A stretch of 64,000 nucleotides of DNA from a virus (lineage: Duplodnaviria; Caudoviricetes): IMG/VR virus record IMGVR_UViG_3300049988_000286, positions 352,001 through 416,000 of that record. One strand, written 5' to 3'. Within the stretch, counting starts at the first letter, position 1; the number at the start of each line of letters is the position of its first letter. A program made the translations under genes and the position numbers. Below, in pieces: positions 1,032-59,316 of the stretch. The notes beneath the pieces are model-generated. The model was not told the origin of the DNA. It did no database searches and saw only the letters and a program-made list of their open reading frames with translations.

Positions 1032-1060
1032 TTGACCGAACTCTGCTAATCAATTATAGC
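1032..1060 (+). promoter_or_regulatory. sigma70-type early promoter containing CGAACT
   Basis: TTGACC-17 nt-TATAGC. Confidence 0.7.
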
Positions 1061-1083
1061 GGTGGTCGAAACGGAGACACCCC

Positions 1084-1278
1084 ATGCTCGCAGTCAACGA
1101 TCTCGTCCACGCCACCATTATCGAGAACGGCTACTGGAAGGATTCCTGCAAGGGGAAGATCGTCGGCGAGACCGCCAACTTCTGGATTGTCGAGAGCCAT
1201 CACTGGCGCTTCAACAACAAGACCAAGCGTTTCGCCAAGGAGGGCGGCAACCTCTCCAAGCGCGAGCCGAAGGTTTAA
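1084..1278 (+). CDS. hypothetical protein
   Basis: GGAG SD, lies downstream of a promoter. Confidence 0.7.
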   Translation: MLAVNDLVHATIIENGYWKDSCKGKIVGETANFWIVESHHWRFNNKTKRFAKEGGNLSKREPKV

Positions 1279-1490
1279 CCCCTCCACGCCAGCCAATACA
1301 TCAGTGCGTCGGCTTCATCGCGAAACACTATTCTCCCCTCCGACACATGGACGAGCGACGAAGTATTGTCCGCGCACCATGCTATCGCCGCCCGCGCCTC
1401 TTGCGACCATCTACCGAAGGGGTGATCGACCTCGATCACCCACTCCTTGACGAGGGTCCGATACATCCGGGCAGCGCGAGGCGGGGTCAT
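1275..1490 (-). CDS. paralog family A small protein
   Basis: C-terminal IVFRDEADALMYWLAW. Confidence 0.7.
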   Translation of the reverse strand: MTPPRAARMYRTLVKEWVIEVDHPFGRWSQEARAAIAWCADNTSSLVHVSEGRIVFRDEADALMYWLAWRG

Positions 1491-1530
1491 GCGGGTTCGT
1501 TAGATCACGCGAGGTCGAGAAAGCAAATAG

Positions 1531-2721
1531 CTATTTCTTGATGCGCGTGAGGAACAGTTCCTCCCTCCATCCCTCGCGGGGCTCTCCTTGCTTCAAGGTC
1601 ACCTGATCGACAGGAACAAGAACCCACGAATCCGGTAGGTCCATCTTGCGCGCAGTCGAGACGCCTTCGATGCCCTTGTCCTCGAAGAAACCGGTCCACG
1701 AGAGGATTGACGATCGTGCGTTACCCTCGTTGGCGTATTTCTTCGCGGACTTGAACGTATCGACCATGCGGACATGATCCTTCCGATCCGTGTAGTCATA
1801 GTCGAACCCGGCGAAATACTTCCCGTCCTCGCCGTCGCGAAGGACATAGACGATCGACTCCGGTATCGAGATTGCCTCAACGGCATCCTCGATCTGTCGA
1901 TAAGAAAGAGTGAAGCCGTTCTGCCACCAAGGATTTTCGCCCCAATACTCCCACGAGGGAACACCCCTGCCACCCGATGAACCATCCGGACGCGTGTGCT
2001 TGATGTGATACTCGATCTGGCTCTCATCGAGATCGACGCGGATGGCGCGGCCGGAGTCCTTTTGCCGGTCCGCGCTGGTCTTCTTGTCCGACGATACAGT
2101 GAATTCGAGACCCGCCGGTACCGTGAAGATCGGCATCTCATGCGCGTGCTCATACGGGTTGTCGTAATTGTATGGCTTTCCCGCCGCGCGCCAAGCATCC
2201 GCCTCCGCGACGAGGCGATGATCACGCTCTGGATAGACCCACGCAGTAATGGTCACCGGCCGGGTAAAGCGCCAGCGCGAGCCCTTGACCATCTCCTTCA
2301 GCTTGGAAACCTTGGCCTCCTTTGCTACTGGCGGGTCGATCTTGGTTACGGCCCCGATGTGGGCAACCGATGATCCCCAGACGACGAACCGCAAGTCGCC
2401 GCCGAAGCGATCGATGACCCGCTGTTCAGCCGCCGCCGCTTCTGGGAACCGTTTTTTGATCGCACTCCATTGCCCATCGAACAGGCGGTAGCTCTCACCC
2501 CATGTCTTCCAAAGGTCATGCCCGGCGAGTTCTCGCAGCACCACATGCTCTTCTTCCGGGATGAGGTCTTCAAGCGAATGCGGTCTCGTGATCTGCGTGA
2601 CGCGCCCCTTTGTGGCGCGCTTCGAAGGCTGGCAGAACCGTTCCGAGAGCACAAACCCCGCCGAATAGATGGGGGTGCCCTTGGGTGCGCTCACGTAGTC
2701 GCCAATTTTGATATCGCTCAT
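1531..2721 (-). CDS. hypothetical protein
   Basis: Long ORF starting MSDIKIG, TTGACC promoter upstream. Confidence 0.8.
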   Translation of the reverse strand: MSDIKIGDYVSAPKGTPIYSAGFVLSERFCQPSKRATKGRVTQITRPHSLEDLIPEEEHVVLRELAGHDLWKTWGESYRLFDGQWSAIKKRFPEAAAAEQRVIDRFGGDLRFVVWGSSVAHIGAVTKIDPPVAKEAKVSKLKEMVKGSRWRFTRPVTITAWVYPERDHRLVAEADAWRAAGKPYNYDNPYEHAHEMPIFTVPAGLEFTVSSDKKTSADRQKDSGRAIRVDLDESQIEYHIKHTRPDGSSGGRGVPSWEYWGENPWWQNGFTLSYRQIEDAVEAISIPESIVYVLRDGEDGKYFAGFDYDYTDRKDHVRMVDTFKSAKKYANEGNARSSILSWTGFFEDKGIEGVSTARKMDLPDSWVLVPVDQVTLKQGEPREGWREELFLTRIKK

Positions 2722-2820
2722 GCCTAGATGGTAGCCTTCAACTCGCAAGCGGTCAACGGTTTATAGTTCGTGCTTGACTCACCCGTGATAATCGATTACC
2801 GACGCGGCGAGGAGATCACT

Positions 2821-4544: not shown

Positions 4545-4982
4545 TTAGGCAAATTTCACGCGAAATTGTGTTGTATCATCGTCTTCGAAGTCGCCGAATG
4601 TGACTTGCCCATTATATTGTGCCGCGAGCTTCTTTGCTAGTTTCTCGTAGACGGACGCTCTGGCGGTATTGTCATGCCTCGGTGTGGTGAAATATATCTC
4701 CTTCGGAGAGAACTTATCGTGTAAGTCTTTGACGATGGTGATCACCGTAGCGAACACCGCAAACGGAGTTGCTTCATTAGTCGGTTTGAGGGAGAACTTG
4801 GTGCCCCCTACCATATTTCCAAATTGGATATCCCATACTTTGTTATGCGCGCGAGCGACGAAGGCGTATGGTTTATTCTTGATCTCGAATTTGGCCAAAG
4901 CGTATTCGTGATCGATGTCCTCCCAACGCCATACCTGCTGTGAATCAAAGGCTTCTCTGATGATGTTGATTAGGTCTCGCAT
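4545..4982 (-). CDS. late gene with internal-protein-like N-terminus, possibly GNAT-like; paralog of 14203-14748
   Basis: MRDLINIIREA 4 nt after TAAATA; FATVITIV and RASVYEKL motifs. Confidence 0.75.
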   Translation of the reverse strand: MRDLINIIREAFDSQQVWRWEDIDHEYALAKFEIKNKPYAFVARAHNKVWDIQFGNMVGGTKFSLKPTNEATPFAVFATVITIVKDLHDKFSPKEIYFTTPRHDNTARASVYEKLAKKLAAQYNGQVTFGDFEDDDTTQFRVKFA

Positions 4983-4986
4983 TGCG

Positions 4987-4992
4987 TATTTA
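4987..4992 (-). promoter_or_regulatory. late promoter TAAATA
   Basis: TAAATA-4 nt-ATG(4982). Confidence 0.75.
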
Positions 4993-5030
4993 GGCTTGCG
5001 AACCAGACTTGGACGAACTATAGCAGAGCG

Positions 5031-5470: not shown

Positions 5471-5521
5471 GGTGTTGACAGTTCGGTAAATCAAACCCAT
5501 GGAGCGGAAAGGAGAACAATC

Positions 5522-6903: not shown

Positions 6904-6961
6904 AGAGTTCGTGCTTGACCCCTGCCGCTAATCGTTTATACACGCGGTTCAGGAGACGATC

Positions 6962-7492
6962 ATGACCCGCACTTACATCGGCCATTACAAGCGCTTCGGT
7001 CAGCCCAACCACCACATGGCGGTCTATCGTCTCGAAGATGGCCGCACGGTCAATGATCAGAATGTTGAGATCAGCCTCGACAAGCGCGTTCTGGTCAGCG
7101 GTCCCGAAGATGGCGGTGAGGTTTGCGGTTGCGCGTTGTGTCAGCGTAAGGCTCGCCTCGCTCCGCCCAAGGGTTTCGACGGTTGCACGTGCACCGAGTT
7201 CACCCTCCATTTCCATCTCTGCCAGTGCGGCGTGCGCCAGCGTGTCCTCGAAGCCGAGGCGGAAGCCATCGTCCCGATGCTATCGGACGAGCAAGTCTCC
7301 GCGATGGTTGAGGTCACTGGCGCGATCGAGCAGCGCAAGGCAGACAATCTCGGCTACGGCTTGAAGAAACTTCAGTTAAGCACGGGATGGTCGCGTAGCG
7401 GAGACAATGCGGTTATCTTGACCGATCTGGGTAAAATTGTTCAGGACCGGTTGCGCAAACATCTCGAAGTAGTCAAAGTCCTCTCGACGTAA
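6962..7492 (+). CDS. hypothetical Cys-rich protein, possibly zinc-binding
   Basis: AGGAG SD; CGCALC, CTC and CQC motifs. Confidence 0.7.
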   Translation: MTRTYIGHYKRFGQPNHHMAVYRLEDGRTVNDQNVEISLDKRVLVSGPEDGGEVCGCALCQRKARLAPPKGFDGCTCTEFTLHFHLCQCGVRQRVLEAEAEAIVPMLSDEQVSAMVEVTGAIEQRKADNLGYGLKKLQLSTGWSRSGDNAVILTDLGKIVQDRLRKHLEVVKVLST

Positions 7493-7609
7493 TCTTATAA
7501 TCTTTATTGTCCCTTGGTTGGAATGTTGCTATAGTTCGGCAACATTCCTGTCATGATTGACAGCGCGGATGATCGCGCTACCATCGTGGCACTATATAGG
7601 GAGTCAATC

Positions 7610-8232: not shown

Positions 8233-8288
8233 AGAGGTGTTGACAGTTCGCTGATAATCGATTAGAGGTCGGTCCAAGGAGAAAACTG

Positions 8289-9394: not shown

Positions 9395-9697
9395 GTGGCT
9401 CGCGGCATCACGCGCGTGCACATCTGCTTTCCCTGCCGGAAGGTGGGTAAGGGGCAGATGCGGCGGGGGCGACGGATCAAGCCCCGTTGTTCCGCGTGTC
9501 GCGCAGAGATGGTCCGCAATCCACAGAGCAGTAACACGCCGTCGCCGAACGATGACCGGGCATGGAAGGCGTTCGAACAGGATTGCGTGCGCCTCGTTAG
9601 AGACCTCGTAGAGCTATACAACGACTCTACCCTTCATCGTCACTGGCACGATTGGGCGAGAAGCCCTTGCGCTCCGGTGGCGCTACGCGATATCTGA
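9395..9697 (+). CDS. zinc-ribbon hypothetical protein
   Basis: CFPC and CSAC pairs; tight gene packing. Confidence 0.6.
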   Translation: MARGITRVHICFPCRKVGKGQMRRGRRIKPRCSACRAEMVRNPQSSNTPSPNDDRAWKAFEQDCVRLVRDLVELYNDSTLHRHWHDWARSPCAPVALRDI

Positions 9698-11781: not shown

Positions 11782-12039
11782 ATGCATCGGATTGACCCCC
11801 TGACCCACGCAGACCCTGCGTGCGAGAAAAGCATCCAGCAGTGTCGTCTGCTTGCTTCCATGGATGTGGACGGCGAGGATTTGGAATGGTTTATAGGCAA
11901 AGTCCTTCAATACCAAAACCATGGTGTGCGGCGTAGTCGAGAAGCGTTCCAGCGAGATCACGACTTCGCGGAATGGGACGAGACATGGACGCAGATGTGG
12001 CGCATCCATTCCGGATACCTCGTTGCTGCGGTGGATTGA
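11782..12039 (+). CDS. hypothetical protein
   Basis: ORF fits the operon spacing. Confidence 0.55.
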   Translation: MHRIDPLTHADPACEKSIQQCRLLASMDVDGEDLEWFIGKVLQYQNHGVRRSREAFQRDHDFAEWDETWTQMWRIHSGYLVAAVD

Positions 12040-12070
12040 CATAGTTCGGTCAATGCTCTAATAGAGCAAC

Positions 12071-12217
12071 ATGACCAAAGACGATCGCCGCTTCCTCGCT
12101 GACCAGTCCCGTATCTTGCGGGGTTGGGAGCAGTATGGCGACAAGTTTCCGCTCGATATCACCGTAGAGGATTTGCGACGCTTGATCTCGCTTGCCCAAG
12201 CGCGTGATGCCGCGTAG
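12071..12217 (+). CDS. hypothetical 48-aa protein
   Basis: MTKDDRRFL..., downstream of the TTGACA promoter at 12036. Confidence 0.6.
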   Translation: MTKDDRRFLADQSRILRGWEQYGDKFPLDITVEDLRRLISLAQARDAA

Positions 12218-18470: not shown

Positions 18471-18554
18471 TCCCCGAGTATATCTTTACGATCAGCTTCG
18501 TGCCTTATTGATCGTTTTTGTTCTTGCGTGACCGACGAACTATGCTAGAACGGT

Positions 18555-20976: not shown

Positions 20977-21037
20977 ATCAAATAGTCCTTGACCGTTTGG
21001 CGAACTATGGTGTAGATGGTCGCCAAGGAGCAATGCT

Positions 21038-21900: not shown

Positions 21901-22157
21901 TGCTAGTCGAGATTGAGTTTTACGGCACGGAAGCGCAGATCGCCGCCGATCTGAACGCACTGCGCCGCAATGGCGTCCCGTTCATCGGTGTTTCGCGGGA
22001 TCGTTCCGATCGGCTATATCATAGCTCTCGCACCATAATTGTGAATTTCAAGAACGACGGGTCTTTGCCGTACCATTGGGCCACGCATGTGCGTTCTCGT
22101 GACATCGATCTCGTGAAATTGATTACTCAACACGTCGTAGGTGTCTTGACAAGATAG
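21900..22157 (+). CDS. paralog family B protein
   Basis: RRNGVPF and VRSRDIDLVKL motifs. Confidence 0.65.
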   Translation: MLVEIEFYGTEAQIAADLNALRRNGVPFIGVSRDRSDRLYHSSRTIIVNFKNDGSLPYHWATHVRSRDIDLVKLITQHVVGVLTR

Positions 22158-22178
22158 TTCGGTGTGCTATTAGGGCGG
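22154..22178 (+). repeat. 25-bp promoter repeat, copy 1
   Basis: ATAGTTCGGTGTGCTATTAGGGCGG, identical to 22682-22706; downstream of TTGACA. Confidence 0.9.
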
Positions 22179-22681: not shown

Positions 22682-22706
22682 ATAGTTCGGTGTGCTATTA
22701 GGGCGG
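22682..22706 (+). repeat. 25-bp promoter repeat, copy 2
   Basis: Identical to 22154-22178; downstream of TTGACG. Confidence 0.9.
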
Positions 22707-26080: not shown

Positions 26081-26129
26081 CATTTCCTCCTTCGAACTAT
26101 CGTGCTACGCCACGCAGGAGGAGACTGGG

Positions 26130-34666: not shown

Positions 34667-34698
34667 AGTTGTGTCTCTAGCCCGAGTTCGCTCTGGCG

Positions 34699-39384: not shown

Positions 39385-39432
39385 CGCTAATCTCCTCCGC
39401 GCCTCAATAGCACAGTTCGATCACCGATCAAG

Positions 39433-41019: not shown

Positions 41020-41054
41020 TCGGGGGAGGTATCATCGATAGTTCGATGAGTCAA

Positions 41055-43917: not shown

Positions 43918-43966
43918 GCCTGATCTCCTATCACGCCAGTGCCATAGTTCGCTATAAGCTGCAAGG

Positions 43967-45544: not shown

Positions 45545-45550
45545 AGCTGG

Positions 45551-45670
45551 TTATTCGGCGGGCCGGGGCTGCGGGGCGATCCTCGACGCCTCGGTGACGG
45601 GCAGACCCGCCTCCGTGGGGACGTAGATCAGCGTCGCCTTGCTGTTCTCGATCGCCTGAATCTCGCTCCA
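45551..45670 (-). pseudogene. C-terminal remnant of an SPFH/membrane-protease-subunit-like gene
   Basis: Start-less 39-codon frame ...AIENSKATLIYVPTEAGLPVTEASR behind an in-frame TAG. Confidence 0.45.
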
Positions 45671-45741
45671 CTAGCCCTCGTCTCTTTGGATATCGACCAT
45701 GAACCAGTTGATCTCCAAACAATCACCGCACAGACGATCGC

Positions 45742-46107: not shown

Positions 46108-46150
46108 AATCTTCTCCTTTACGTCCCTTTACACCATCGTTATAGTTCGG

Positions 46151-46408
46151 TCAACGCCAATCGCCCATGTCGAACACGCGACCGAGATAGATACGGACAA
46201 TCTCGTAATCACGCTCACGGATGATCACGCAATAAAGACCGGGCGCGTTTCCGAGATCATCATCCCGAAGCTTTCCTAGAATCGCACGACTGCCCTTGAG
46301 CCAAGATGGTAGACCGCCTTTCCACAACATCCCAACATCGTTGGCGCGGCACCATCGGGCGAACGGGACGATCCCCGCCTTGATCATGATTCTTCGGTTC
46401 ACACGCAC
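46151..46408 (-). CDS. paralog family B protein
   Basis: RWCRANDV and IIRERDYEIVRIYLG motifs. Confidence 0.7.
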   Translation of the reverse strand: MRVNRRIMIKAGIVPFARWCRANDVGMLWKGGLPSWLKGSRAILGKLRDDDLGNAPGLYCVIIRERDYEIVRIYLGRVFDMGDWR

Positions 46409-46638
46409 ACCAGATTGCCACCAAGGTATTCCCGCACGGCTTTGAGGTCACGATCCCGGATGATATAAGCACGGATGAGCAACACGTGACCCGCAAATTC
46501 GTAACCGTGCCAGCGACGCGATCCTACGCGGGTCACCACGAACGGATCAAGGGTTTTATATTCCCAGAGGATTGGTATGCGCATCGCCCGGCACCAAACC
46601 ATCAAGGACGGTGGCCGCGCTTGCGTGATGACCCTCAT
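46399..46638 (-). CDS. paralog family B protein
   Basis: VWCRAMRIPI and IIRDRDLKAVREYLG motifs. Confidence 0.7.
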   Translation of the reverse strand: MRVITQARPPSLMVWCRAMRIPILWEYKTLDPFVVTRVGSRRWHGYEFAGHVLLIRAYIIRDRDLKAVREYLGGNLVCV

Positions 46639-46665
46639 CGAAGCACCCTCAAATTACACAGATAG

Positions 46666-46758
46666 AGGGTAAGGAGGTCGATCCGTGATTGCCTTGAATT
46701 ATATTGCACCGAAGAGGAGGATGCGGCACTGATCAAGCTGGCTTTCGAGGGTATGTAA
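46666..46758 (+). pseudogene. start-less family A C-terminal remnant
   Basis: ...ELYCTEEEDAALIKLAFEGM* after an in-frame TAG. Confidence 0.4.
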
Positions 46759-46858
46759 TGTTCTGGGTTCTTTGCGAGAACGACGACGATCAGGACGACC
46801 CGAACGTCGTGTTCGACACAGATGGCAGTTTGGCTGTCTTTACAGATGCGGAGGCCTG

Positions 46859-46996
46859 ATGAAGCTATGTTGGATGGGGATTCATCGCTACATGACATGG
46901 TGGCCCCCATATCTAGATCATAAGGTTGTTCAGCAGCCACAATGGACTTCATGTCGTTATTGCGGCAAATGGAAAAGACGCTACACGGTAAAGTGA
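46859..46996 (+). CDS. 45-aa Cys/His zinc-binding peptide
   Basis: MKLCWMGIH...CRYCGK; GGAGG SD. Confidence 0.55.
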   Translation: MKLCWMGIHRYMTWWPPYLDHKVVQQPQWTSCRYCGKWKRRYTVK

Positions 46997-47178
46997 ACGG
47001 CATGGCGTCAAAGCCGTCCCCACCACCGCCCTCCTTTGTCATGCGATTGTTCTGTGAATACGCGAAAAATCTCCATTGATGTGCTGTCCCGCTCGCACAA
47101 TCATGCAGATGGGAACTGCATTACGCCGCCCCCATTCGAGCACATCTATGAGCGAACAATCGACTTCGATGATCCGGT

Positions 47179-47430
47179 TCATCGCACCACCTCCACTGAT
47201 CCCACATACAGGGTAAGTAGGTCGAAGTCACGATCGCGGACGATGATCCGGTAGGAACGTGATATCCGCGAGAACTTACTATAGCGAGCGAGGATGCGCC
47301 GCGACCCAATCGTCTTCAATTCCGGATTATAATTTAGACGCGGCACATAGAGCAATGCCGGAACGCCAGCGCTGCGGCACCATTCCATCAGGGTGACGAG
47401 GGGAGCGTGGACCTTGATGAGACGGTTCAT
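47179..47430 (-). CDS. paralog family B protein
   Basis: EWCRSAGVPA and IIVRDRDFDLLTLYVG motifs. Confidence 0.7.
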   Translation of the reverse strand: MNRLIKVHAPLVTLMEWCRSAGVPALLYVPRLNYNPELKTIGSRRILARYSKFSRISRSYRIIVRDRDFDLLTLYVGSVEVVR

Positions 47431-47666
47431 CCATCCATCCCGTTCAACCGTAGAGCGACCTCCTCCGGGGTTCCCAACACGTTGTAGTCCTCCCCCACCT
47501 CCATGACGATCTGGGTAACGCCCGCATCGTATTCCAAGATGGATACGACATGCCGGGGATTGACCCAAACGTTGCCCACGCCCTGCCACGCACCCCACTG
47601 CGCACCGGCCTGCGGCAGTGTAGTGGGGAGACGCTGACGAGCGGCTCGTATGAACGGTATGAACAT
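47427..47666 (-). CDS. small FlbD-like protein
   Basis: WVNPRHVVSI...TQIVM..GEDYNV..TPEEV. Confidence 0.55.
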   Translation of the reverse strand: MFIPFIRAARQRLPTTLPQAGAQWGAWQGVGNVWVNPRHVVSILEYDAGVTQIVMEVGEDYNVLGTPEEVALRLNGMDG

Positions 47667-47735
47667 CCCCCGTGTATGCGCGCGCGGAGACGGGGGTGCA
47701 ATAAAGGCTTCCGGGGATCGATAGTTTGGGGAGGG

Positions 47736-47811
47736 TGGTGCCCACTGACCGACTTGCACGGTCCATCTCCGGGTTACAAATCCGGCACAGCGCTATCTCT
47801 GTTTAGCGGGC
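47736..47811 (-). tRNA. tRNA-Thr(UGU), atypical elbow
   Basis: GCCCGCT/AGTGGGC acceptor, TTTGTAA loop, T-loop TGCAAGT, D-loop lacks GG, CCA. Confidence 0.8.
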
Positions 47812-47819
47812 AGAAGCAA

Positions 47820-47907
47820 TGGCGGGCGAGGTGGGATTCGAACCCACGGAACCTTGCGGTTCGTCACGTTAGCAGTGTGGTGGTTTCGGCCTCTCACCCA
47901 CTCGCCC
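47820..47907 (-). tRNA. tRNA-Ser(GCU)
   Basis: CTGCTAA loop, long variable arm, TTCGAAT T-loop, CCA; weak anticodon stem. Confidence 0.85.
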
Positions 47908-47922
47908 GTATTCTATAGCTGA

Positions 47923-48010
47923 TGGTGGAATCGGTGGGATTCGAACCCACGGAACCTTGCGGTTCACTCGCTTTCCAAGCGAGCCCGATCGGCCACTCTG
48001 GCACGATTCC
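47923..48010 (-). tRNA. tRNA-Ser(GGA)
   Basis: CTCGC-TTGGAAA-GCGAG anticodon arm, long variable arm, CCA. Confidence 0.95.
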
Positions 48011-48023
48011 ATATCAGAAACTC

Positions 48024-48113
48024 TGGAGGAGCCGACCCGATTCGAACGGGTGAGACCTTGCGGTCTGCTCGTTTTCAAGACGAGTGCGTTAAACCGGGCT
48101 CCGCCACGGCTCC
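48024..48113 (-). tRNA. tRNA-Ser(UGA)
   Basis: CTCGT-CTTGAAA-ACGAG anticodon arm, long variable arm, CCA. Confidence 0.95.
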
Positions 48114-48114
48114 T

Positions 48115-48483
48115 TTATGTCAGACCAAGTTCCTGCATGTCAACCGAAGGAACGGTCCAATTCTTTATCCTTTTACCCCAGATGGCCTTCATCCTCGGTA
48201 AAGTGAGGGGCTCGATCCGAAGAGCGCCGCAATCAGCACCCAAGTAGTCCGCAAGAAACTCATCTCGCGACTGGCGTAATCCTCGTGCATCACCGAAAAC
48301 ATCCTCGCCGAACATGACACCAACATGTCGCGGAACAGTGTCCCAAACATCGTCGAAGATTCCTACTAGGGTTCCGCCATGAAGATCGTGCAGCGTCGCC
48401 GCCATCACCATGCATTCACCGCGTTGATAACGCTCTAGCGCCGACCTGTCATCATCGAAAGCGTCGATCTCAAAAATTCGCAT
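48115..48483 (-). CDS. late gene with papain/transglutaminase-like triad; paralog of 23927-24361
   Basis: MRIFEI start; GECMVMA, PRHVGV and FGDARG motifs. Confidence 0.7.
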   Translation of the reverse strand: MRIFEIDAFDDDRSALERYQRGECMVMAATLHDLHGGTLVGIFDDVWDTVPRHVGVMFGEDVFGDARGLRQSRDEFLADYLGADCGALRIEPLTLPRMKAIWGKRIKNWTVPSVDMQELGLT

Positions 48484-48487
48484 CTGG

Positions 48488-48493
48488 TATTTA
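48488..48493 (-). promoter_or_regulatory. late promoter TAAATA
   Basis: 4 nt to ATG 48483. Confidence 0.75.
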
Positions 48494-48582
48494 GTGGTGC
48501 CCTCGGAAGGAATCAAACCTTACGTTTCCGACGTACCAAGTCGGCGTTCTATCATTGAACTACGAGGGCGTAGTTGTTAAAC

Positions 48583-48741
48583 CTATAAATCGATTGAAGG
48601 GTCGATCGTCCCCGCACGGGCGAGCAGATCATCTACCCACCGTCGCTCCTCAATCTCACGCTTGATCTCTTCGATCGCTACGCGTGCGGTCTCGGCATCC
48701 ATGTCGCCGACATCGATGTAATGGATTGTGCGCTCGGTCAC
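48583..48741 (-). CDS. 52-aa protein (not in the supplied ORF track)
   Basis: GTG start overlaps the upstream stop; MTERTIHYIDVGDMDAETA... Confidence 0.55.
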   Translation of the reverse strand: MTERTIHYIDVGDMDAETARVAIEEIKREIEERRWVDDLLARAGTIDPSIDL

Positions 48742-48941
48742 GGGTTCTTCTTCAACTGGCGCTGCAACTGTTCGCCGATGCCGCGAATGGTATCCGCGCC
48801 GGAATAGAGGATCGTCGTCTGCTCACCATTGCTGTGCAGCCAAGTCACCAGTGTAGAGTCCTCGGTGACGAAGTTGGCGTTCTCGATGTAGGCGTCTTCC
48901 AGCGCCTCGAAGACGGTCTTGGTAGGGGCGATATTTGTCAT
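48738..48941 (-). CDS. hypothetical protein
   Basis: AAGGGGG SD. Confidence 0.65.
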   Translation of the reverse strand: MTNIAPTKTVFEALEDAYIENANFVTEDSTLVTWLHSNGEQTTILYSGADTIRGIGEQLQRQLKKNP

Positions 48942-48978
48942 CCCCCCTTATACCTCGACGGGTCGCCGCGCGGCAATA

Positions 48979-49281
48979 TTAAGCCGTGGTGCGACCAGCG
49001 AACATCGTTGAGCAGAGGACGAAACCGGTCTCGTCATCCAGCATAACGGCGATGCGATCATGCTCAACCACAACGACCGAGTGGAAGATCGCATTCTCGT
49101 GGCACCACCGCTCCATCTCTACGGAGAGGGGCGTGGCACCATCGCCAGTAAGGCCGATCATCAGGCGCTCCGCGTTGAACGTGATCTCGACCGACAGAGG
49201 AGTGTAGAAAGCCCTTGCCGACAACATCTTGTTGATCACCGCATCGACGCTTTGATTCCAGAGATGCGCTTTCGATTTCAT
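48979..49281 (-). CDS. paralog family A-like protein
   Basis: RWCHEN and VMLDDETGFVLCSTMF motifs; TTGACA promoter. Confidence 0.65.
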   Translation of the reverse strand: MKSKAHLWNQSVDAVINKMLSARAFYTPLSVEITFNAERLMIGLTGDGATPLSVEMERWCHENAIFHSVVVVEHDRIAVMLDDETGFVLCSTMFAGRTTA

Positions 49282-49305
49282 CCCCGGTTGGTAATCATGC
49301 GCGAA

Positions 49306-49803
49306 CTATTTGTCAAGGTTTTTCCGGCGGTGCCAATGCTCCTCCATGTGGCAAGTTGGACAAAGGAATTCGAGGTTTGCCATTTCATCAGAACCACCCT
49401 TCGATCGCTCTACAATGTGGTGAACCTGAACAATCTCCGGAATCTTCTCATAGGAACAACGTTCGCATCGTTCCGCACCTTTGAACTCAATCAGCCTAGA
49501 CCTTATTGAGGCGTGTTTTACAACGGCGCTCTTCAGGGGTTTACCTGTCTGTTTATAGTTTATACCGGCACGATGTTTGTTTGAACAGCGTTTGGAGCAG
49601 GTGACACGACTAGCCGCCCCCATGAAGGTCTCTTGGCACACAGGGCAGAGTTTTGGCTTTGAACAGTGTTGTCCAAAGCACGCTCGACTACAGAATACAC
49701 CCACTTTGTCGGTGCCCATACGAGATGGTCGGCGATAAATCGCTTTGCTGCAAACAGAACATTCCGTGTTTGGTGGCGATATGTAACCGGGCTTACTAGG
49801 CAT
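49306..49803 (-). CDS. HNH homing endonuclease
   Basis: CERC...VHHI...GG...NL..LCPTCH plus N-terminal CxxC/CSxxC repeats. Confidence 0.85.
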   Translation of the reverse strand: MPSKPGYISPPNTECSVCSKAIYRRPSRMGTDKVGVFCSRACFGQHCSKPKLCPVCQETFMGAASRVTCSKRCSNKHRAGINYKQTGKPLKSAVVKHASIRSRLIEFKGAERCERCSYEKIPEIVQVHHIVERSKGGSDEMANLEFLCPTCHMEEHWHRRKNLDK

Positions 49804-49851
49804 ACTCTGCAAGGTATGCTAATTTCGCCCGGCAGAGCGATATTAAAATGA

Positions 49852-49941
49852 TGGCGGAGGGCCGAGGACATGCTCCCCACACGATTGCCCGTGCGTTCGG
49901 TTTTCGAGGCCGACCCAGCGCGCTTGTCTGGTTGACCCTCC
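49852..49941 (-). tRNA. tRNA-Ser(CGA), atypical elbow
   Basis: GGAGGGT/GCCCTCC acceptor, CTCGAAA loop, long variable arm, T-loop AGCATGT, CCA. Confidence 0.75.
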
Positions 49942-49954
49942 GTAACTGTAATCT

Positions 49955-50305
49955 CTATGCCATATTCGGCAAGTTAGGCGCAATCGGGCACCGCGATATC
50001 CTTACCAGAAAGTATCGCGCAGCCACCAAAGCTTTGAGCCGAACCTTGATCGGGACATCCGTCTTCTTGGCGACGCGGAGGCATCGAGCCACGAAATGAA
50101 TATCGGCGATATGTTGGCGACGACGCTTGTCCGCTGCATCGCCGCGATAACTCTTGTCATACTCGCAGTCATGCTTGAAGCACGCTTTGTCGAGTTCATC
50201 GATGGGAGCGCCGCCGCAATTACCCGGCCCGCAATAGTTGCCATGGAAGCGGATGAAGCGCTTCGTTGGTGCTAATGGGGCTTCGAACAGATGGCGGCTG
50301 CGCAT
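49955..50305 (-). CDS. phospholipase A2-like late protein with internal-protein-like N-terminus
   Basis: MRSRHLFEA start; YCGPGN Ca-loop, DKACFKHDCEY (HD) and ADIHF motifs. Confidence 0.8.
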   Translation of the reverse strand: MRSRHLFEAPLAPTKRFIRFHGNYCGPGNCGGAPIDELDKACFKHDCEYDKSYRGDAADKRRRQHIADIHFVARCLRVAKKTDVPIKVRLKALVAARYFLVRISRCPIAPNLPNMA

Positions 50306-50309
50306 CTGT

Positions 50310-50315
50310 TATTTA
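50310..50315 (-). promoter_or_regulatory. late promoter TAAATA
   Basis: 4 nt to ATG 50305. Confidence 0.75.
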
Positions 50316-50413
50316 CACTGGCTTGACGGAGTTTGCACCGCAAGGTGTTGGCGTACCGTGGCACCCAGATCGTCGTGAAGAGACCTCCTCTTACCGGAGC
50401 CGACGATCAACCA

Positions 50414-50590
50414 TTACATTTCGTATAGGACTACCGTCCAATCTCGATCATCGAAGTGGTAGCGGCGGTAGTGGACTTGTCCGAAGAGTCCATCGATCCC
50501 GTCGATGTAATCACCGCTATTGGGAACGGTGGGCATGTCGCGCTCACCAAGTATGCGATTGTCGGCATCGCGGAAGATGACGCGGTTCAA
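50414..50590 (-). CDS. 58-aa protein coupled to rpsU (not in the supplied ORF track)
   Basis: TTG start overlaps the rpsU TGA; MNRVIFRDADNRILG... Confidence 0.55.
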   Translation of the reverse strand: MNRVIFRDADNRILGERDMPTVPNSGDYIDGIDGLFGQVHYRRYHFDDRDWTVVLYEM

Positions 50591-50787
50591 CGATCGCGTT
50601 CCGCTCGCTGACGATCGGCTTTCCTCGATCGCTTGACCGCAGCGGCGCGAGCCTTGGCCTTAACTTCGCTGGGCTTCATGTAGTGGGCGCGCTGTTTCAT
50701 TTCACGCAGGATGCCCTCGCGCTGCATCTTGCGCTTCAAGACCTTCAAGGCCTTGTCCATATTCCCGTCCTGAACCGCTACCCGCAT
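50587..50787 (-). CDS. rpsU: ribosomal protein bS21
   Basis: DKALKVLKRKMQREGILREMKQRAHYMKPSE matches alphaproteobacterial bS21; AAGGA SD. Confidence 0.9.
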   Translation of the reverse strand: MRVAVQDGNMDKALKVLKRKMQREGILREMKQRAHYMKPSEVKAKARAAAVKRSRKADRQRAERDR

Positions 50788-50844
50788 TGTGTGATCCTTT
50801 CGGAGACGGGCTAGCTGGGAGTTCGGACGAGGGCAAGAGGGAAG

Positions 50845-50920
50845 TGGAGCCCGAGGTCGGGATTGAACCGACGACCTGTCCCTTACGAGGGGACTGCAAC
50901 TACCACTGTGCTACTCGGGC
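50845..50920 (-). tRNA. tRNA-Thr(CGU)
   Basis: GTCCC-CTCGTAA-GGGAC anticodon arm, TTCAAT T-loop, CCA. Confidence 0.9.
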
Positions 50921-50969
50921 GTGTGAAGGGTTGACAGGGGCTATGCCCCTAGAAGAAAAAATCGGTGAC

Positions 50970-51045
50970 TGGCAGGAGCGCCGAGACTCGAACTCGGAAC
51001 CTACGGGATTGGAAGCCGGTGCTCTACCAATTGAGCTACACTCCT
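50970..51045 (-). tRNA. tRNA-Trp(CCA)
   Basis: A1-U72 and G73 identity elements, TTCCAAT loop; anticodon stem has only 3 pairs. Confidence 0.75.
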
Positions 51046-51052
51046 ACAGTCA

Positions 51053-51126
51053 TGGTTGGCACGGGTGGTAATGCTCCACCGTCTCGGCTTTATCAGAACC
51101 TTGCTCTACTTTTGAGCTACGCGCCA
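51053..51126 (-). tRNA. tRNA-Ile(GAU), atypical elbow
   Basis: CTGATAA loop, T-loop AGCATTA, D-loop AAAAGTA, CCA. Confidence 0.8.
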
Positions 51127-51156
51127 TCAGTGACAGACAACCGGTCTGTCAGCGGG

Positions 51157-51232
51157 TGGTGGTGACGGCTGGGCTCGAACCAGCGACATACGCGTCATCA
51201 ACACGTCGTTCTTCCAACTGAACTACGCCACC
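51157..51232 (-). tRNA. tRNA-Ile(GAU) with G37
   Basis: ACGTG-TTGATGA-CGCGT anticodon arm, canonical D and T arms, CCA. Confidence 0.85.
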
Positions 51233-54898: not shown

Positions 54899-54986
54899 AC
54901 TGCTTTCCCTTCACCCATCCCTCTAGCGACATCGGGATAGAAAGACAACGATTGACTTGCCGAACTACTCTCCATATAGGCCGGGC

Positions 54987-55412
54987 ATGAAAGACACCCT
55001 CGTAGATTATGTCCGTGATGCCATCGCTGACGGCAAGCTGGATTCCTCGATCGATTTTTTGATCAGCGAGCGCGACAGTATGCGCGACATCGAGCCCCGC
55101 TATGGCGAGGAAGCCGATCAATCGCGAGAGTTGATCCGCGTCTGGCGAGAAGAACGTGCGCGTCGCGTGGCGGAAGGACCGTCCTTTGAGGTGGGCCAGC
55201 GCGTTAAGGTGATCGAGGTGGTGCCGATGGGCTACCGGGGTATCGCCGAACCTGAACTCGGGACCACCGGCGTCGTAGTCGGTGACGGACACGAGGACGG
55301 CCTTCTCATGGTGCAAATCCACATGCATGATCTGGGCTACGATGCCGATCCCGCTGATGAGGATGATGTTCGTGCCCTACCGCTGTTCAACTACGCCTTG
55401 GAAGCCTTGTGA
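54987..55412 (+). CDS. hypothetical protein, probably leaderless
   Basis: TTGACT-17 nt-TATAGG ends 6 nt before the ATG; FEVGQRVKV motif. Confidence 0.7.
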   Translation: MKDTLVDYVRDAIADGKLDSSIDFLISERDSMRDIEPRYGEEADQSRELIRVWREERARRVAEGPSFEVGQRVKVIEVVPMGYRGIAEPELGTTGVVVGDGHEDGLLMVQIHMHDLGYDADPADEDDVRALPLFNYALEAL

Positions 55413-55672: not shown

Positions 55673-55740
55673 CGCCGTCGAATTAAGATTGACACGTCTG
55701 ACCGAACTCGCTCTACAGAGTTCGATTGAAGGAAGAGCTT

Positions 55741-57098: not shown

Positions 57099-57298
57099 TG
57101 GCTGACGAAACACCCCTCGCCGACTCCCTCGATCTGTTTCTCGGCAAGACGATCAAGAAGATGGACGCTAGTGCGTGCAACAACATCGTCTTCCTGTTCA
57201 CCGATGGCAGCAAGGTGGCACTCCACATCGAGATGGATGCCATCGGGCTGCCGGATGTCCTCGCTTGCACACATTGTGCGGAGATCACCAATGATTGA
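57098..57298 (+). CDS. hypothetical protein
   Basis: TGATG coupling. Confidence 0.7.
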   Translation: MADETPLADSLDLFLGKTIKKMDASACNNIVFLFTDGSKVALHIEMDAIGLPDVLACTHCAEITND

Positions 57299-58127
57299 CC
57301 ACGCCATCATCACCGCCAAGCACTGCTTCACCGCGCAGGACTTCGACGATCGTCGTCTGCCCTTCGAGCCTAACGAATACGCCCGGCTCAAATACGGTGA
57401 CGACAGCATCGCGCGCAAGTTCGGCTTCGAACTCGCGGATCACTTCTTCGCGCAGCACCACGGTGCGCTGCTCGTGGAATCGGTGGTGGTCATTCCCTCG
57501 CCGTACAACTACGTCGAGAACGCCGCGACGATCATGAGCCGTCATTTCGTGCGGCGGCTCAACCATCTGCTCGTCGGCGCATCGGGGCTTCACGTCGATT
57601 TCGCTACCATCCAGCGCAAGGTCAACTACACCGGTGACTTCGGCCTCCTCGACGCAAAGGCGCGTCGCGAGTTGATCGGCGGCGATGTCTTCTACGTCCA
57701 CGAGGGATATTTCGAGGGCAGGACGATGCTGTTCCTCGACGACATTCGCATCACCGGCGCGCACGAGCATCGCCTCATGGGGCTGATGGCGGAGCGGCCC
57801 AAGCTCGCAGGGGCGAACATCCATTTCCTCTACTATGGGCAGCTTTGCGGGGACGAGACGCGAAGCGACGTGGAGGCCTACCTCAACTCGGCAGAGATGA
57901 CGCTCGATCAATATCTCGGCATGTTGCGCGATTCCGATAACCATGTCATTGTCCGCCCGATCAAGTGGCTGATGCGGATGGCTCCGGAGGAGTTCGAACG
58001 CTTCCTCCGGGAAGCGGACTATCGCTCCATCTGGCGTCTCTACGATGGCTGCCTCGGCGAGGGCTATTACAAGGTTCCCGATTATCTCGTGAACTTCCTC
58101 GCCTTGAAGAAGAAAATCGACGGCTGA
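57291..58127 (+). CDS. phosphoribosyltransferase, ComF-related Ter-associated type (PRTase_3-like)
   Basis: YARLKYGD, SPY and LFLDDIRITGAHE PRPP-loop motifs. Confidence 0.75.
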   Translation: MIDHAIITAKHCFTAQDFDDRRLPFEPNEYARLKYGDDSIARKFGFELADHFFAQHHGALLVESVVVIPSPYNYVENAATIMSRHFVRRLNHLLVGASGLHVDFATIQRKVNYTGDFGLLDAKARRELIGGDVFYVHEGYFEGRTMLFLDDIRITGAHEHRLMGLMAERPKLAGANIHFLYYGQLCGDETRSDVEAYLNSAEMTLDQYLGMLRDSDNHVIVRPIKWLMRMAPEEFERFLREADYRSIWRLYDGCLGEGYYKVPDYLVNFLALKKKIDG

Positions 58128-58153
58128 ACAGCGGGAGTGCTAGCACAGTGGAT

Positions 58154-58951
58154 ATGAAAGTAGTCTTTGCTAGCGACCTCCACGCTGATTTCAACCAACC
58201 CAAGATTGAGTGGCCCGCCGGTGATGTATGTGTCATCGGCGGCGACACAGGTAATTCCATCGGCACCGAGTTGAAGGTCTTGGGTAAGCTGGCGAAGAAG
58301 TATCGCCACGTCGTCACCACGGATGGCAACCACACCCATTACTCCAATGCGCCACAGAAGCGGACCGTCGAGGAGACGATTCGTCGCATCCGTGCGCAGC
58401 TTCCGGCAAACGTCCATTTCCTCGGTCACGGCAATCCCTCTGTGGAGATCGAGGGTGTGTGGTTCGTCGGTTGCATGGGCTGGTATAGCTTCGATGTTGT
58501 TGGCGATGTGGAGACCAACAAACAGCGCTGGCGGCGCGTCATGAACGATTGTCGCTGGATCGGTTTCGACGAGATCGAGCAGCGCCAGCCGTGGGATCGT
58601 GCCCGTGATGATGCCGATTTGGTGCGTGACACGCTCCGAGACATCAAGGCGAAGGCTGGTGCAACCTTGCCGCCCATCGTCGTTATGACCCACACCGCCC
58701 CGCATCGCGACATGATCACGTGGAAGGACCACGATCCCGAGTGGAACGCCAGCAACCCCTTCTACGTCAACTCCCATATGCAAGCCGTGCTGGAAAGCCC
58801 GGATGCTCAAGGCGTGACGATCTGGGTCAACGGCCACACCCACCACCGGCGCGAGAAGATGATCAATGGCATCTACTGTATCTGCAATCCTCGCGGCTAT
58901 CCGAGCGAGAATCCCGGTTGGGAGCCGGTCGTTCTTCCAGTCATTCTTTGA
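58154..58951 (+). CDS. calcineurin-like metallophosphoesterase
   Basis: SDLH, GGD, GNH, TH.AP, GHTH and NPRGY motifs. Confidence 0.9.
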   Translation: MKVVFASDLHADFNQPKIEWPAGDVCVIGGDTGNSIGTELKVLGKLAKKYRHVVTTDGNHTHYSNAPQKRTVEETIRRIRAQLPANVHFLGHGNPSVEIEGVWFVGCMGWYSFDVVGDVETNKQRWRRVMNDCRWIGFDEIEQRQPWDRARDDADLVRDTLRDIKAKAGATLPPIVVMTHTAPHRDMITWKDHDPEWNASNPFYVNSHMQAVLESPDAQGVTIWVNGHTHHRREKMINGIYCICNPRGYPSENPGWEPVVLPVIL

Positions 58952-58961
58952 AGGATCAGAC

Positions 58962-59285
58962 ATGAACCGCATCACCATCAATGGCGTGACAATCGAGGGC
59001 GGACGCGATATCCGCGTCGTTGGACGAAGCGTGCTCATCGACGGGCAGAAAATCGATATCGGCTCGATCGAGGGCTCAACACTCCGCGTCGTCGTAGAGG
59101 GCGATCTCGCCTCACTGACCTGTGATGGATCGGCAGAAGTCACGGGCGGGGTTCAGGGGAGCGTCTCGGCTGGTGGGAGTGTCAAGTGCGGTGACATCAC
59201 GGGCGCGGTTAATGCGGGAGGCTCGGTCAAAGGCGCGGCGATCTCCGGACCCGTTAATGCCGGGGGATCAGTCAAGTTGCGTTGA
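58962..59285 (+). CDS. beta-helix repeat protein
   Basis: Repeated GxVxAGGSV units. Confidence 0.75.
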   Translation: MNRITINGVTIEGGRDIRVVGRSVLIDGQKIDIGSIEGSTLRVVVEGDLASLTCDGSAEVTGGVQGSVSAGGSVKCGDITGAVNAGGSVKGAAISGPVNAGGSVKLR

Positions 59286-59316
59286 CGCCTTGGTAGAGTT
59301 CGGATAGATGTAGGGG

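What the first reader, a model, noticed from the sequence alone, without database searches (positions are those of the whole stretch)
1037..59302. ANAGTTCG motif inside about 24 sigma70-type promoters, in either orientation
Seen: AGTTCG/CGAACT at 1037, 2765, 5014, 5480, 6906, 7533, 8245, 12043, 18536, 21001, 22156, 22684, 25412, 26093, 34685, 39414, 41040, 43946, 46144, 49302, 50820, 54961, 55703, 55719 and 59297. Almost all are in or next to a -35/-10 spacer. The exact 8-mer ATAGTTCG accounts for 13 of them; a rough estimate at 60% GC expects about 1 per 64 kb on both strands. Longer shared blocks are GAGGTGTTGACAGTTCG (5469, 8234), AGTTCGTGCTTG (2765, 6906, 25412) and the 25-bp repeat at 22154/22682. 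Variable position and orientation suggest a repressor operator or a modification site rather than an activator box. Inference: a phage-wide switch that shuts off early promoters.
Basis: partly seen in the sequence, partly recalled or inferred. Interest (0 to 1): 0.7.

Follow-up and report, generated by a model that had tools for sequence, protein, structure and literature searches.

The report
Phage-wide box inside host-type promoters
A half-megabase phage carries the same short asymmetric DNA word (A-T-AGTTCG) about 150 times between its genes, mostly inside its host-type promoters and in either direction, so it is most likely the landing site of one still unidentified phage protein that controls these promoters together.

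Summary
ATAGTTCG occurs 14 times in the window (1.3 expected) and 53 times in the 499,572-bp phage genome, 45 of them intergenic. A weight matrix (R-Y-AGTTCG-n-T) finds about 150 intergenic sites in 133 regulatory regions, nearly always one per region. 62 of the 150 lie inside the spacer of a TTGAC -35 box (7 expected, P about 3e-41). 41 of 71 promoters with canonical geometry carry the exact core in the spacer, at offsets 4-15, forward 22 and reverse 19. These promoters share nothing else (median 31% identity outside the -35 and the box), so they are not copied cassettes. A directional control word (CTAAATA, late-type promoter) is 35:3 oriented. The distant relative Sinorhizobium phage Phosso lacks this word but has another asymmetric word (TTCCTRT) in its promoter spacers. 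Other relatives have neither, and 401 sampled alphaproteobacterial genomes lack the composite signature. Best reading, at about 50% confidence: an operator for a phage-encoded, probably monomeric, DNA-binding protein that blocks RNA polymerase at host-type promoters. The binder, the sign of regulation and the timing are not shown.

The parts
1037..1044 (-). box AGAGTTCG; lies at +5 of TTGAC 1032 (+ strand promoter of gene 1084) and also in the spacer of TTGAT 1053 (- strand)
2763..2770 (+). box ATAGTTCG, 9 nt upstream of TTGAC 2774 (gene 2821) and next to the back-to-back TTGAC 2756 (- strand)
5014..5021 (-). box ATAGTTCG with no TTGAC nearby; 27 nt upstream of a CTAAATA late-type promoter of gene 4545-4982
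5478..5485 (+). box ACAGTTCG abutting TTGAC 5475 (offset 5, forward); start codon 5522 lies 47 nt from the -35
6904..6911 (+). box AGAGTTCG, 9 nt upstream of TTGAC 6915 (gene 6962)
7531..7538 (+). box ATAGTTCG in the loop of a 10-bp inverted repeat (7521-7548), 24 nt upstream of TTGAC 7557
8243..8250 (+). box ACAGTTCG abutting TTGAC 8240 (offset 5, forward); gene 8289
12041..12048 (+). box ATAGTTCG at offset 7 of TTGAC 12036; start codon 12071 lies 35 nt from the -35 (leaderless geometry)
18536..18543 (-). box ATAGTTCG over the -10/start region of TTGAT 18508 (gene 18558)
21001..21008 (-). box ATAGTTCG, reverse, at offset 12 of TTGAC 20989 (gene 21038)
22154..22161 (+). box ATAGTTCG, forward, at offset 10 of TTGAC 22146 (gene 22198)
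22682..22689 (+). box ATAGTTCG, forward, at offset 10 of TTGAC 22674 (gene 22720); shares a 25-mer with the 22154 promoter
26093..26100 (-). box ATAGTTCG, intergenic, no -35 assigned
34685..34690 (+). core AGTTCG, reverse relative to TTGAC 34702 (- strand), offset 12; the start codon is at a non-canonical distance
39412..39419 (+). box ACAGTTCG, reverse, at offset 12 of TTGAT 39431 (- strand; gene start 39384)
41038..41045 (+). box ATAGTTCG, reverse, at offset 9 of TTGAC 41054 (- strand; start 41019, leaderless geometry)
43944..43951 (+). box ATAGTTCG, reverse, at offset 13 of the -35 variant TTGCA 43964 (- strand; start 43917)
46142..46149 (+). box ATAGTTCG, reverse, abutting TTGAC 46154 (- strand; start 46107)
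49302..49309 (-). box ATAGTTCG, forward, at offset 9 of TTGAC 49316 (- strand; start 49281, leaderless geometry)
54961..54968 (-). box GTAGTTCG, reverse, at offset 9 of TTGAC 54952 (start 54987, leaderless geometry)
55703..55724 (.). inverted pair CGAACTC-N9-GAGTTCG flanking the -10 of TTGAC 55689 (gene 55741)
59295..59302 (+). box AGAGTTCG, forward, at offset 15 of TTGAC 59282 (start 59317, leaderless geometry)

Best explanation
The word R-Y-AGTTCG-n-T is an operator: the binding site of one sequence-specific DNA-binding protein encoded by the phage. The phage has no detectable RNA polymerase, sigma region 2, MotA or AsiA, so it transcribes many genes from host-type promoters (TTGAC, about 17 bp, TA-type -10). 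One copy of the word has been placed inside or against most of these promoters, usually in the spacer between -35 and -10. The site is solitary, asymmetric and works in either direction and at any spacer offset. The protein therefore probably binds as a monomer, or with one specific half, and acts by occupying DNA that RNA polymerase must cover. That would switch about a hundred promoters off together once the protein accumulates. Shown here: the site set, its placement, its freedom of orientation, the independence of the promoters that carry it, and its lineage specificity. Inferred: that a protein binds it, that the protein is phage-encoded, that it represses, and that the promoters are early.
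For: Enrichment: there are 14 copies in the window against 1.3 expected. Genome-wide there are 53, of which 45 fall in the 14% of the genome that is intergenic. It is one of the two most enriched intergenic 8-mers, z about 32. The matrix finds 150 intergenic sites, 6.3 times the coding density. Placement: 62 of 150 boxes lie in a TTGAC spacer against 7.2 expected, P about 3e-41. 41 of 71 promoters with canonical geometry carry the exact core in the spacer, and most of the other 30 have it within about 15 nt of the -35 or over the -10. Only 1 copy lies in a convergent gap. It is not a promoter element: relative to genes it reads forward 38 and reverse 40, while the control CTAAATA reads 35:3. 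Relative to the promoter it reads forward 22 and reverse 19, at offsets 4-15. The promoters are not copied cassettes: median identity outside the -35 and the box is 31%, and 3 of 820 pairs exceed 60%. Sites are solitary: 133 regions carry a box, 13 carry two or more, and no partner spacing is preferred. Phage-specific: five IMG/VR relatives and Phosso show no enrichment. Phosso instead carries TTCCTRT in its own spacers, z 18-23, found by the same unbiased pipeline that gives AGTTCG z 45 here. Not a host regulon in the bacteria sampled: the composite TTGAC-N0-10-ATAGTTCG occurs at most 3 times per genome in 401 alphaproteobacterial genomes, at control level, against 11 forward and 12 reverse in the 0.5-Mb phage with control 0. 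The phage depends on host polymerase and lacks T4's shut-off factor AsiA.
Against: No binding protein was identified. The window's HTH proteins give only weak, generic matches. 30 proteins shared with Phosso but absent from a box-free relative showed no DNA-binding domain. There are no expression or binding data, so the sign of regulation and the timing class are inferred only from position. About a third of the boxes are not next to a recognisable -35. The word is not depleted in coding DNA: about 9 genic copies of the 8-mer, as expected by composition. So there is no sign of selection against stray sites. The Phosso box has a different layout, mostly one orientation in the spacer with an inverted copy downstream, so the two systems may not be homologous.
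Confidence: 0.5

Rival explanations
1. Positive control: a phage protein bound at the box helps host RNA polymerase use these promoters. This would be a middle-mode activator, or a tag that marks phage promoters as the phage's own, rather than a repressor.
For: The same site set fits equally well. T4-type phages are known to reprogram sigma70 with a monomeric factor, MotA, that reads an asymmetric box (established knowledge). About 30 of the 71 canonical promoters lack a spacer box and could form the immediate-early set. The -10 regions of box promoters lack a conserved final T, so they may be weak on their own.
Against: No MotA (MotCF) or AsiA was found. The -35 TTGAC is retained. Box position (offsets 4-15) and orientation (22:19) are free, which is hard to reconcile with a defined contact to polymerase. 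From established knowledge, sites inside a 17-bp spacer are typical of repressors.
Confidence: 0.15
2. A mark in the DNA rather than a protein operator: the word is the target of a phage DNA-modifying or nicking enzyme, and the modified base or nick in the promoter tunes transcription.
For: Short asymmetric words are typical targets of some methyltransferases (established knowledge). The protein at 17706-18470 has a partial match to methyltransferase PHROGs, E 6e-9.
Against: That protein has no Pfam match and no solved relative. A modification target need not sit in promoter spacers, yet 62 of 150 boxes do. Coding copies are at chance level rather than enriched or avoided. The information content extends over about 10 positions.
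Confidence: 0.08
3. A host factor's site: the phage borrows a regulator or nucleoid protein of its host, perhaps a leaf-dwelling alphaproteobacterium, and that factor recognises the word.
For: The promoters are of host type. Phosso, with a different host, uses a different word. The true host is unknown and may not be among the genomes sampled.
Against: None of 401 sampled alphaproteobacterial genomes shows the composite signature above control level. No second GTTC lies at the spacing of the alphaproteobacterial SOS box. I recall no known alphaproteobacterial regulator with this site.
Confidence: 0.07
4. No trans-factor at all: the word is an intrinsic spacer feature, such as DNA shape, or a relic of promoter duplication or recombination cassettes.
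For: A few promoters are clearly related, for example the 25-mer shared at 22154 and 22682 and the 17-mer shared at 5469 and 8234. A duplex-shape property would be independent of orientation.
Against: The carriers are unrelated outside the box, median 31% identity. The offset varies from 4 to 15, which a shape element read by polymerase should not tolerate. The core is almost invariant across about 150 sites. Box-free relatives use TTGAC promoters without it.
Confidence: 0.08

Closest known systems
Operators and stoperators of cluster A mycobacteriophages (L5 gp71, TipsytheTRex repressor; PMC9283540)
   Same: One phage protein binds as a monomer to a short asymmetric site repeated at more than 20 places in the genome, in promoters and in short intergenic gaps.
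   Different: Those sites are 13 bp long, and their orientation follows the direction of transcription and is needed for function (PMC9283540). Here orientation is free (22:19). The sites sit in promoter spacers, number about 150, and the phage is a T4-related giant with no sign of lysogeny examined. No homolog of that repressor was sought.
T4 middle promoters: MotA box with MotA and AsiA (recalled from established knowledge)
   Same: A T4-type phage redirects host sigma70 polymerase through a monomeric protein that reads a short asymmetric box near -30.
   Different: No MotCF or AsiA domain is present. The -35 TTGAC is kept. The box has no fixed position or orientation.
KorB/KorA global regulon of plasmid RK2, and ParB-type regulators (recalled)
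   Same: One DNA-binding protein has its operator in many promoters of a large mobile genome. The phage does encode a ParB/Spo0J-type protein of 291 aa.
   Different: ParB/KorB operators are palindromes read by dimers, whereas this box is solitary and asymmetric. The ParB-like protein better fits the near-palindrome TATAAWCGWTTATA seen in about 12 promoters.
P1 C1 repressor with dispersed asymmetric 17-bp operators (recalled, not checked in a paper here)
   Same: Monomeric recognition of asymmetric operators scattered over a large phage genome, overlapping promoters.
   Different: The operators are longer and far fewer, and P1 is a temperate phage. No homology was tested.
TTCCT(A/G)T box in the GGTTGAC promoters of Sinorhizobium phage Phosso (found here)
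   Same: A distant relative (128 of 787 proteins shared, median identity 39%) also embeds a lineage-specific asymmetric 7-mer in the spacers of its host-type promoters.
   Different: The word is different. It is mostly forward in the spacer (18 copies at one offset), with inverted copies just downstream of the -10, often as arms of long inverted repeats.

Membership tests
Host sigma70-type promoter (the context of the box) | -35 TTGAC, a spacer of about 17 bp and a TA-type -10 | tested here: met
   Column statistics of 71 promoters show T at +23 and A at +24. Single promoters can be read.
Host sigma70-type promoter (the context of the box) | Fixed geometry relative to the gene start | tested here: met
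   The distance from -35 to the start codon has two sharp peaks, at 33-36 nt and 46-49 nt.
Host sigma70-type promoter (the context of the box) | Mapped transcription start sites | not testable with these tools
   No RNA run holds this DNA.
Promoter element (-35 or -10 of any sigma factor) | Fixed orientation and fixed distance relative to the gene | tested here: not met
   Forward 38 and reverse 40 relative to genes, against 35:3 for the control CTAAATA. Offsets range from 4 to 15.
T4 MotA/AsiA middle-promoter system | MotA (MotCF) and AsiA proteins are encoded | tested here: not met
   No match at E up to 1 for PF09158 or PF09010 in the whole genome.
T4 MotA/AsiA middle-promoter system | The box replaces the -35 at a fixed position near -30, in one orientation | tested here: not met
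   TTGAC is retained, and both offset and orientation vary.
Cluster A mycobacteriophage stoperators | An asymmetric site repeated genome-wide and bound by a monomer | tested here: inconclusive
   The site is asymmetric, solitary and repeated about 150 times. Binding stoichiometry cannot be tested here.
Cluster A mycobacteriophage stoperators | Site orientation correlates with the direction of transcription (PMC9283540) | tested here: not met
   38:40 relative to genes and 22:19 relative to promoters.
ParB/KorB-type global regulon | A palindromic operator read by a dimer | tested here: not met
   The matrix shows no dyad, and no inverted partner occurs at a preferred spacing.
ParB/KorB-type global regulon | A ParB-family protein is encoded | tested here: met
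   The 291-aa protein at genome 260016-260891 matches HTH_ParB, phrog_1033 (E 5e-45), and ParB/Spo0J/Noc chains in the PDB.
Alphaproteobacterial LexA (SOS) box | Direct repeat GTTC-N7-GTTC (recalled) | tested here: not met
   There is no T-T-C signal 11 nt downstream of the core and no direct partner at that spacing.
DNA methyltransferase target | A modified base at the word in phage DNA | not testable with these tools
   Only contigs are available, with no kinetic or signal-level data.

The most novel reading that the evidence does not exclude
T4-related giant phages that lack AsiA and MotA may use a different way of reprogramming host polymerase. In this reading, a fast-evolving monomeric factor reads a private word planted in the spacer of about 100 host-type promoters (AGTTCG here, TTCCTRT in Phosso). 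It flips the whole early programme at once, and each lineage's promoter code is unreadable to competing phages.
Probability: 0.25. Interest if true: 0.75.

Novelty: new variant of a known kind. Interest (0 to 1): 0.55.

Why it matters
How phages of 0.4-0.5 Mb that rely on host RNA polymerase schedule hundreds of genes is essentially unstudied. This site set is among the largest single-word regulons I know of in a phage: about 150 sites in 133 regulatory regions. It also has an unusual grammar, being solitary, asymmetric, free in orientation, and located inside the spacer. It gives a concrete handle, because one oligonucleotide could be used to fish out the regulator. The parallel word in the cultured Sinorhizobium phage Phosso makes the idea testable at the bench. 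If the factor is a compact monomer with a 10-bp site that can silence any sigma70 promoter from within the spacer, it would also be a useful synthetic-biology part.

Tried and rejected
1. Relatives. The search for related loci with two window proteins found none in IMG/VR. A 15-mer scan of IMG/VR returned 38 scattered single matches in unrelated contigs, the order expected by chance for so large a collection, and I discarded them. The search for homologous proteins for the 308-aa protein behind promoter 8240 returned only itself. Capsid relatives at 60-75% identity show no excess of the 8-mer.

2. Binder hunt. In a phylogenetic profile, 66 proteins had a Phosso match but none in the complete box-free relative G004. 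I scanned 30 small ones that were also missing from G001 and found no DNA-binding domain. Regions with clustered boxes did not point to a regulator gene.

3. The word as a -10 or -35 of a phage sigma factor: rejected on orientation and geometry. No sigma region 2 is encoded. The only region-4-like match is the ParB-type HTH.

4. Dimer operator or LexA-type repeat: no partner at a preferred spacing.

5. The word as an upstream element of CTAAATA promoters: only about 11 boxes lie 15-45 nt upstream, at no fixed distance, and they are explained by back-to-back divergent promoters.

6. Expression: no RNA holder listed.

7. Micro-evolution. Variant contigs in runs X2 and X3 are about 93-97% identical. 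No listed difference falls in the boxes at 7531-7538 and 8243-8250, while differences lie 20-30 nt away. Only 40 of about 700 differences were printed, so I do not count this as evidence.

8. One call failed on a wrong coordinate and one on a handle rule. Both were corrected.

Full report
WHAT THE WINDOW IS. The window is positions 352,001-416,000 of a 499,572-bp virus record rated complete by CheckV, with 57% G+C. Its major capsid protein is of the T4 gp23 type. The nearest cultured relative is Sinorhizobium phage Phosso (469 kb, 66.5% identity), followed by the 121Q/PBECO4-type giant enterobacterial phages at about 61-63%. Only 128 of 787 predicted proteins have a Phosso homolog, with a median identity of 39%. 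The DNA is held in full by a leaf-metagenome run, which may be its source. The genome has no detectable sigma70 region 2, RNA polymerase beta subunit, MotA or AsiA. It must therefore use the host polymerase, and it lacks T4's known means of switching sigma70 promoters off.

CHECKING THE OBSERVATION. ATAGTTCG occurs 14 times in the window against 1.31 expected, and none of 100 shuffles reaches 14. The bare hexamer occurs 56 times against 36 expected, and the excess is the listed set. The three longer repeats are exact. In the whole genome the 8-mer occurs 53 times against 17 for the reversed control.

GENE MAP AND INTERGENIC STATISTICS. No gene caller is provided, so I wrote one: dicodon log-odds trained on long ORFs, start choice aided by ribosome-binding-site score, and greedy selection. 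It genes covering 86% of the genome. tRNAs were added with ARAGORN. 45 of the 53 copies of the 8-mer are intergenic. Among intergenic 8-mers it is one of the two most enriched, 44 copies against 1.8 expected, z about 32. The other enriched word family is CTAAATA. An iterated weight matrix gives R-Y-AGTTCG-n-T. The core is almost invariant, and AGTTCC is the only recurrent variant. The matrix finds 150 intergenic sites, 6.3 times the density in coding DNA. These sites fall in 133 regulatory regions, and only 13 regions hold two or more, mostly divergent promoter pairs. Boxes occur all along the genome and are rarest in the block of large structural genes.

THE PROMOTERS. Intergenic TTGAC boxes that point at a gene lie at two sharply preferred distances from the start codon. 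One is 33-36 nt, where the ATG sits about 7 nt after the -10, which is leaderless geometry. The other is 46-49 nt, with an AAGGAG Shine-Dalgarno sequence at the 5' end. There is a TA at +23/+24. The -10 lacks a conserved final T, which I recall is also true of the alphaproteobacterial housekeeping consensus. These 71 promoters form a well-defined host-type class.

WHERE THE BOX SITS. Relative to the T of TTGAC, the core hexamer lies almost only at +4 to +15, which is inside the spacer, in both orientations. 62 of 150 boxes are in a TTGAC spacer against 7.2 expected (P about 3e-41). With relaxed -35 variants the count is 92 against 28.6 expected. 41 of the 71 canonical promoters carry the exact core in the spacer. 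Most of the other 30 have it about 9 nt upstream of the -35 (TAGTTCGtgcTTGAC) or over the -10/start region. In the window, 11 of 15 canonical promoters carry it.

ORIENTATION. In unidirectional gaps the hexamer reads toward the gene 38 times and away from it 40 times. Only one copy lies in a convergent gap. The control word CTAAATA reads 35:3. It resembles the ATAAATA late motif predicted for the related phage CBB, which that paper likens to the T4 late promoter TATAAATA (PMC5259590), and it behaves as a directional promoter element should. Relative to the promoter itself, the box is forward 22 times and reverse 19 times (p = 0.76). The box is therefore tied to promoters but is not a promoter element and not an RNA signal.

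INDEPENDENCE. Outside the -35 and the box, the 41 carrier promoters are 31% identical at the median, close to random, and only 3 of 820 pairs exceed 60%. The box is thus maintained on its own, not carried along with duplicated cassettes.

SINGLE SITES. Using a lenient matrix threshold for partners, no spacing or orientation of a second box is preferred. A few promoters have an inverted pair flanking the -10, for example 55703/55719. There is no GTTC at the spacing of the alphaproteobacterial SOS box. Recognition of one asymmetric site of about 10 bp suggests a monomer.

RELATIVES. Phosso and five large IMG/VR relatives show no excess of the 8-mer. I ran one unbiased pipeline on four genomes: call genes, collect the spacers of intergenic TTGAC boxes, and rank 6-mers with strands merged. 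It returns AGTTCG for this phage (55 spacers against 1.4 expected, z 45). It returns TTCCTG/TTCCTA for Phosso (z 23 and 18). It returns nothing comparable (z about 6) for the complete 382-kb relative G004 or the partial G001. In Phosso, TTCCT(A/G)T sits forward in the spacer, with 18 copies at one offset. The inverted copy AYAGGAA lies just downstream of the -10, often as arms of 12-15-bp inverted repeats. Two distant members of this group therefore each plant a private asymmetric word in host-type promoters, with different words and layouts, and other members plant none.

HOST-FACTOR TEST. The composite TTGAC-N0-10-ATAGTTCG occurs 11 times in the phage, the reverse form 12 times, and the controls 0 times. 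In 401 genomes drawn evenly from Alphaproteobacteria it occurs at most 3 times per genome, no more than the reversed control. None of the bacteria sampled builds promoters this way. The true host is unknown and may not have been sampled.

INTERPRETATION. The site has about 13 bits of information. It is kept independently in more than 100 otherwise unrelated promoters, is free in orientation and offset but confined to the DNA that polymerase must occupy, and is specific to one phage lineage. All of this is what an operator for a phage-encoded trans-acting protein looks like. From established knowledge of bacterial regulation, sites between -35 and -10 of promoters with normal 17-bp spacers are typical of repressors. 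Freedom of orientation and helical phase argues against a defined activating contact. The absence of AsiA leaves the phage in need of some way to silence its -35-dependent promoters. I therefore favour a global repressor at about 50%. An activator or licensing factor, a modification or nick site, a host factor, and an intrinsic or relic element remain possible, each at 7-15%.

THE BINDER. I could not identify it. The '17706 MTase' has no Pfam match, no relative in the PDB, and only a partial match to methyltransferase PHROGs. A genuine ParB/Spo0J/Noc-type protein is encoded at genome 260016-260891, but I recall that family reads palindromes. A phylogenetic profile (present in Phosso, absent from G004) followed by Pfam scans of 30 small proteins gave no DNA-binding domain.

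COMPARISON WITH KNOWN SYSTEMS. The closest published analogue is the cluster A mycobacteriophage repressor. It binds as a monomer to 13-bp asymmetric sites at more than 20 places, but the orientation of those sites follows transcription and is required for function (PMC9283540). The T4 MotA box is asymmetric and read by a monomer, but it is fixed in place and replaces the -35. KorB and P1 C1 are further global-operator precedents, recalled from memory. The present case differs by its orientation-free, spacer-embedded, solitary sites and by its scale. The 8-mer appears in the literature only inside primers and aptamers. Follow-ups on other phages have described palindromic promoter-embedded operators.

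LIMITS. Gene calls come from an ad hoc caller, although the sharp geometry peaks support its start calls. No transcription, binding or modification data exist for this uncultured phage. The variant contigs could not be analysed in full.

Noticed in passing
whole genome; in the window e.g. 12036-12073, 41019-41058, 49281-49320, 54952-54989, 59282-59319: 27 TTGAC promoters place the start codon 33-36 nt from the -35, about 7 nt after the -10, so their mRNAs should be leaderless. Another 33 have the start at 46-49 nt, with AAGGAG right at the predicted 5' end.
   Followed up: partly
whole genome; in the window e.g. 4982-5000 (- strand), 1017-1035 (- strand): CTAAATA(C/G) is the other top intergenic word. 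It is strictly oriented toward genes (35:3), and in 38 cases it lies 10-14 nt before the start codon. It looks like a T4-late-type promoter (compare ATAAATA in phage CBB, PMC5259590) that drives leaderless mRNAs. Phosso has TATAAATA instead.
   Followed up: partly
window 2789-2798, 6924-6937, 8254-8263; genome-wide 16 copies: The near-palindrome TATAAWCGWTTATA (core TAAWCGWTTA) occurs 16 times, 12 of them intergenic, mostly at +14/+15 of TTGAC, where it overlaps the upstream edge of the -10. It is a possible second operator for a dimeric protein, perhaps the ParB-like one.
   Followed up: partly
G000:C1:260016-260891 (- strand), outside the window: A 291-aa ParB/Spo0J/Noc-type protein (ParB_N plus HTH_ParB; phrog_1033, E 5e-45) with a very high coding score and no Phosso homolog.
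   Followed up: partly
Phosso PV764938, e.g. record positions 9460-9530, 14680-14750, 44640-44710, 143319-143390: Phosso's early-type promoters are embedded in 12-15-bp inverted repeats whose arms contain TTCCTRT/AYAGGAA, with the -10 in the loop. This is reminiscent of the promoter-stem-loop cassettes of T4-type phages, which I recall from memory.
   Followed up: partly
window 27749-27964 (+): A 71-aa protein just upstream of the phage IleRS is 77% identical to Phosso XYS97710, while the median for shared proteins is 39%. It has no Pfam match and matches only phrog_8676, of unknown function.
   Followed up: partly
window 7521-7548: A perfect 10-bp inverted repeat, GGAATGTTGC ... GCAACATTCC, holds the box TATAGTTCG exactly in its 9-nt loop, between gene 6962-7492 and promoter 7557.
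   Followed up: no
genome-wide, e.g. window 8266-8279: Many leadered promoters have the Shine-Dalgarno sequence in the context GTCAAGGAG. The GTCAA is the reverse complement of the TTGAC -35 about 30 nt upstream, so read-through transcripts could fold over the ribosome-binding site.
   Followed up: no
window 12032: In the related variant of run X2 the contig departs from the window right after 12032 and continues with CTAAATAATGG.... The box-bearing TTGAC promoter at 12036 therefore seems to be replaced there by a CTAAATA-type sequence.
   Followed up: no
window 27982-30717, 39954-40532, 380-465, 41055-51232: The window encodes an isoleucyl-tRNA synthetase (911 aa, only 38% identical to the best bacterial match), a PTH2-type peptidyl-tRNA hydrolase, and ten tRNA genes (nine called by ARAGORN, a tenth at 51056-51126 by Rfam only), including one with an odd four-base anticodon call.
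   Followed up: no
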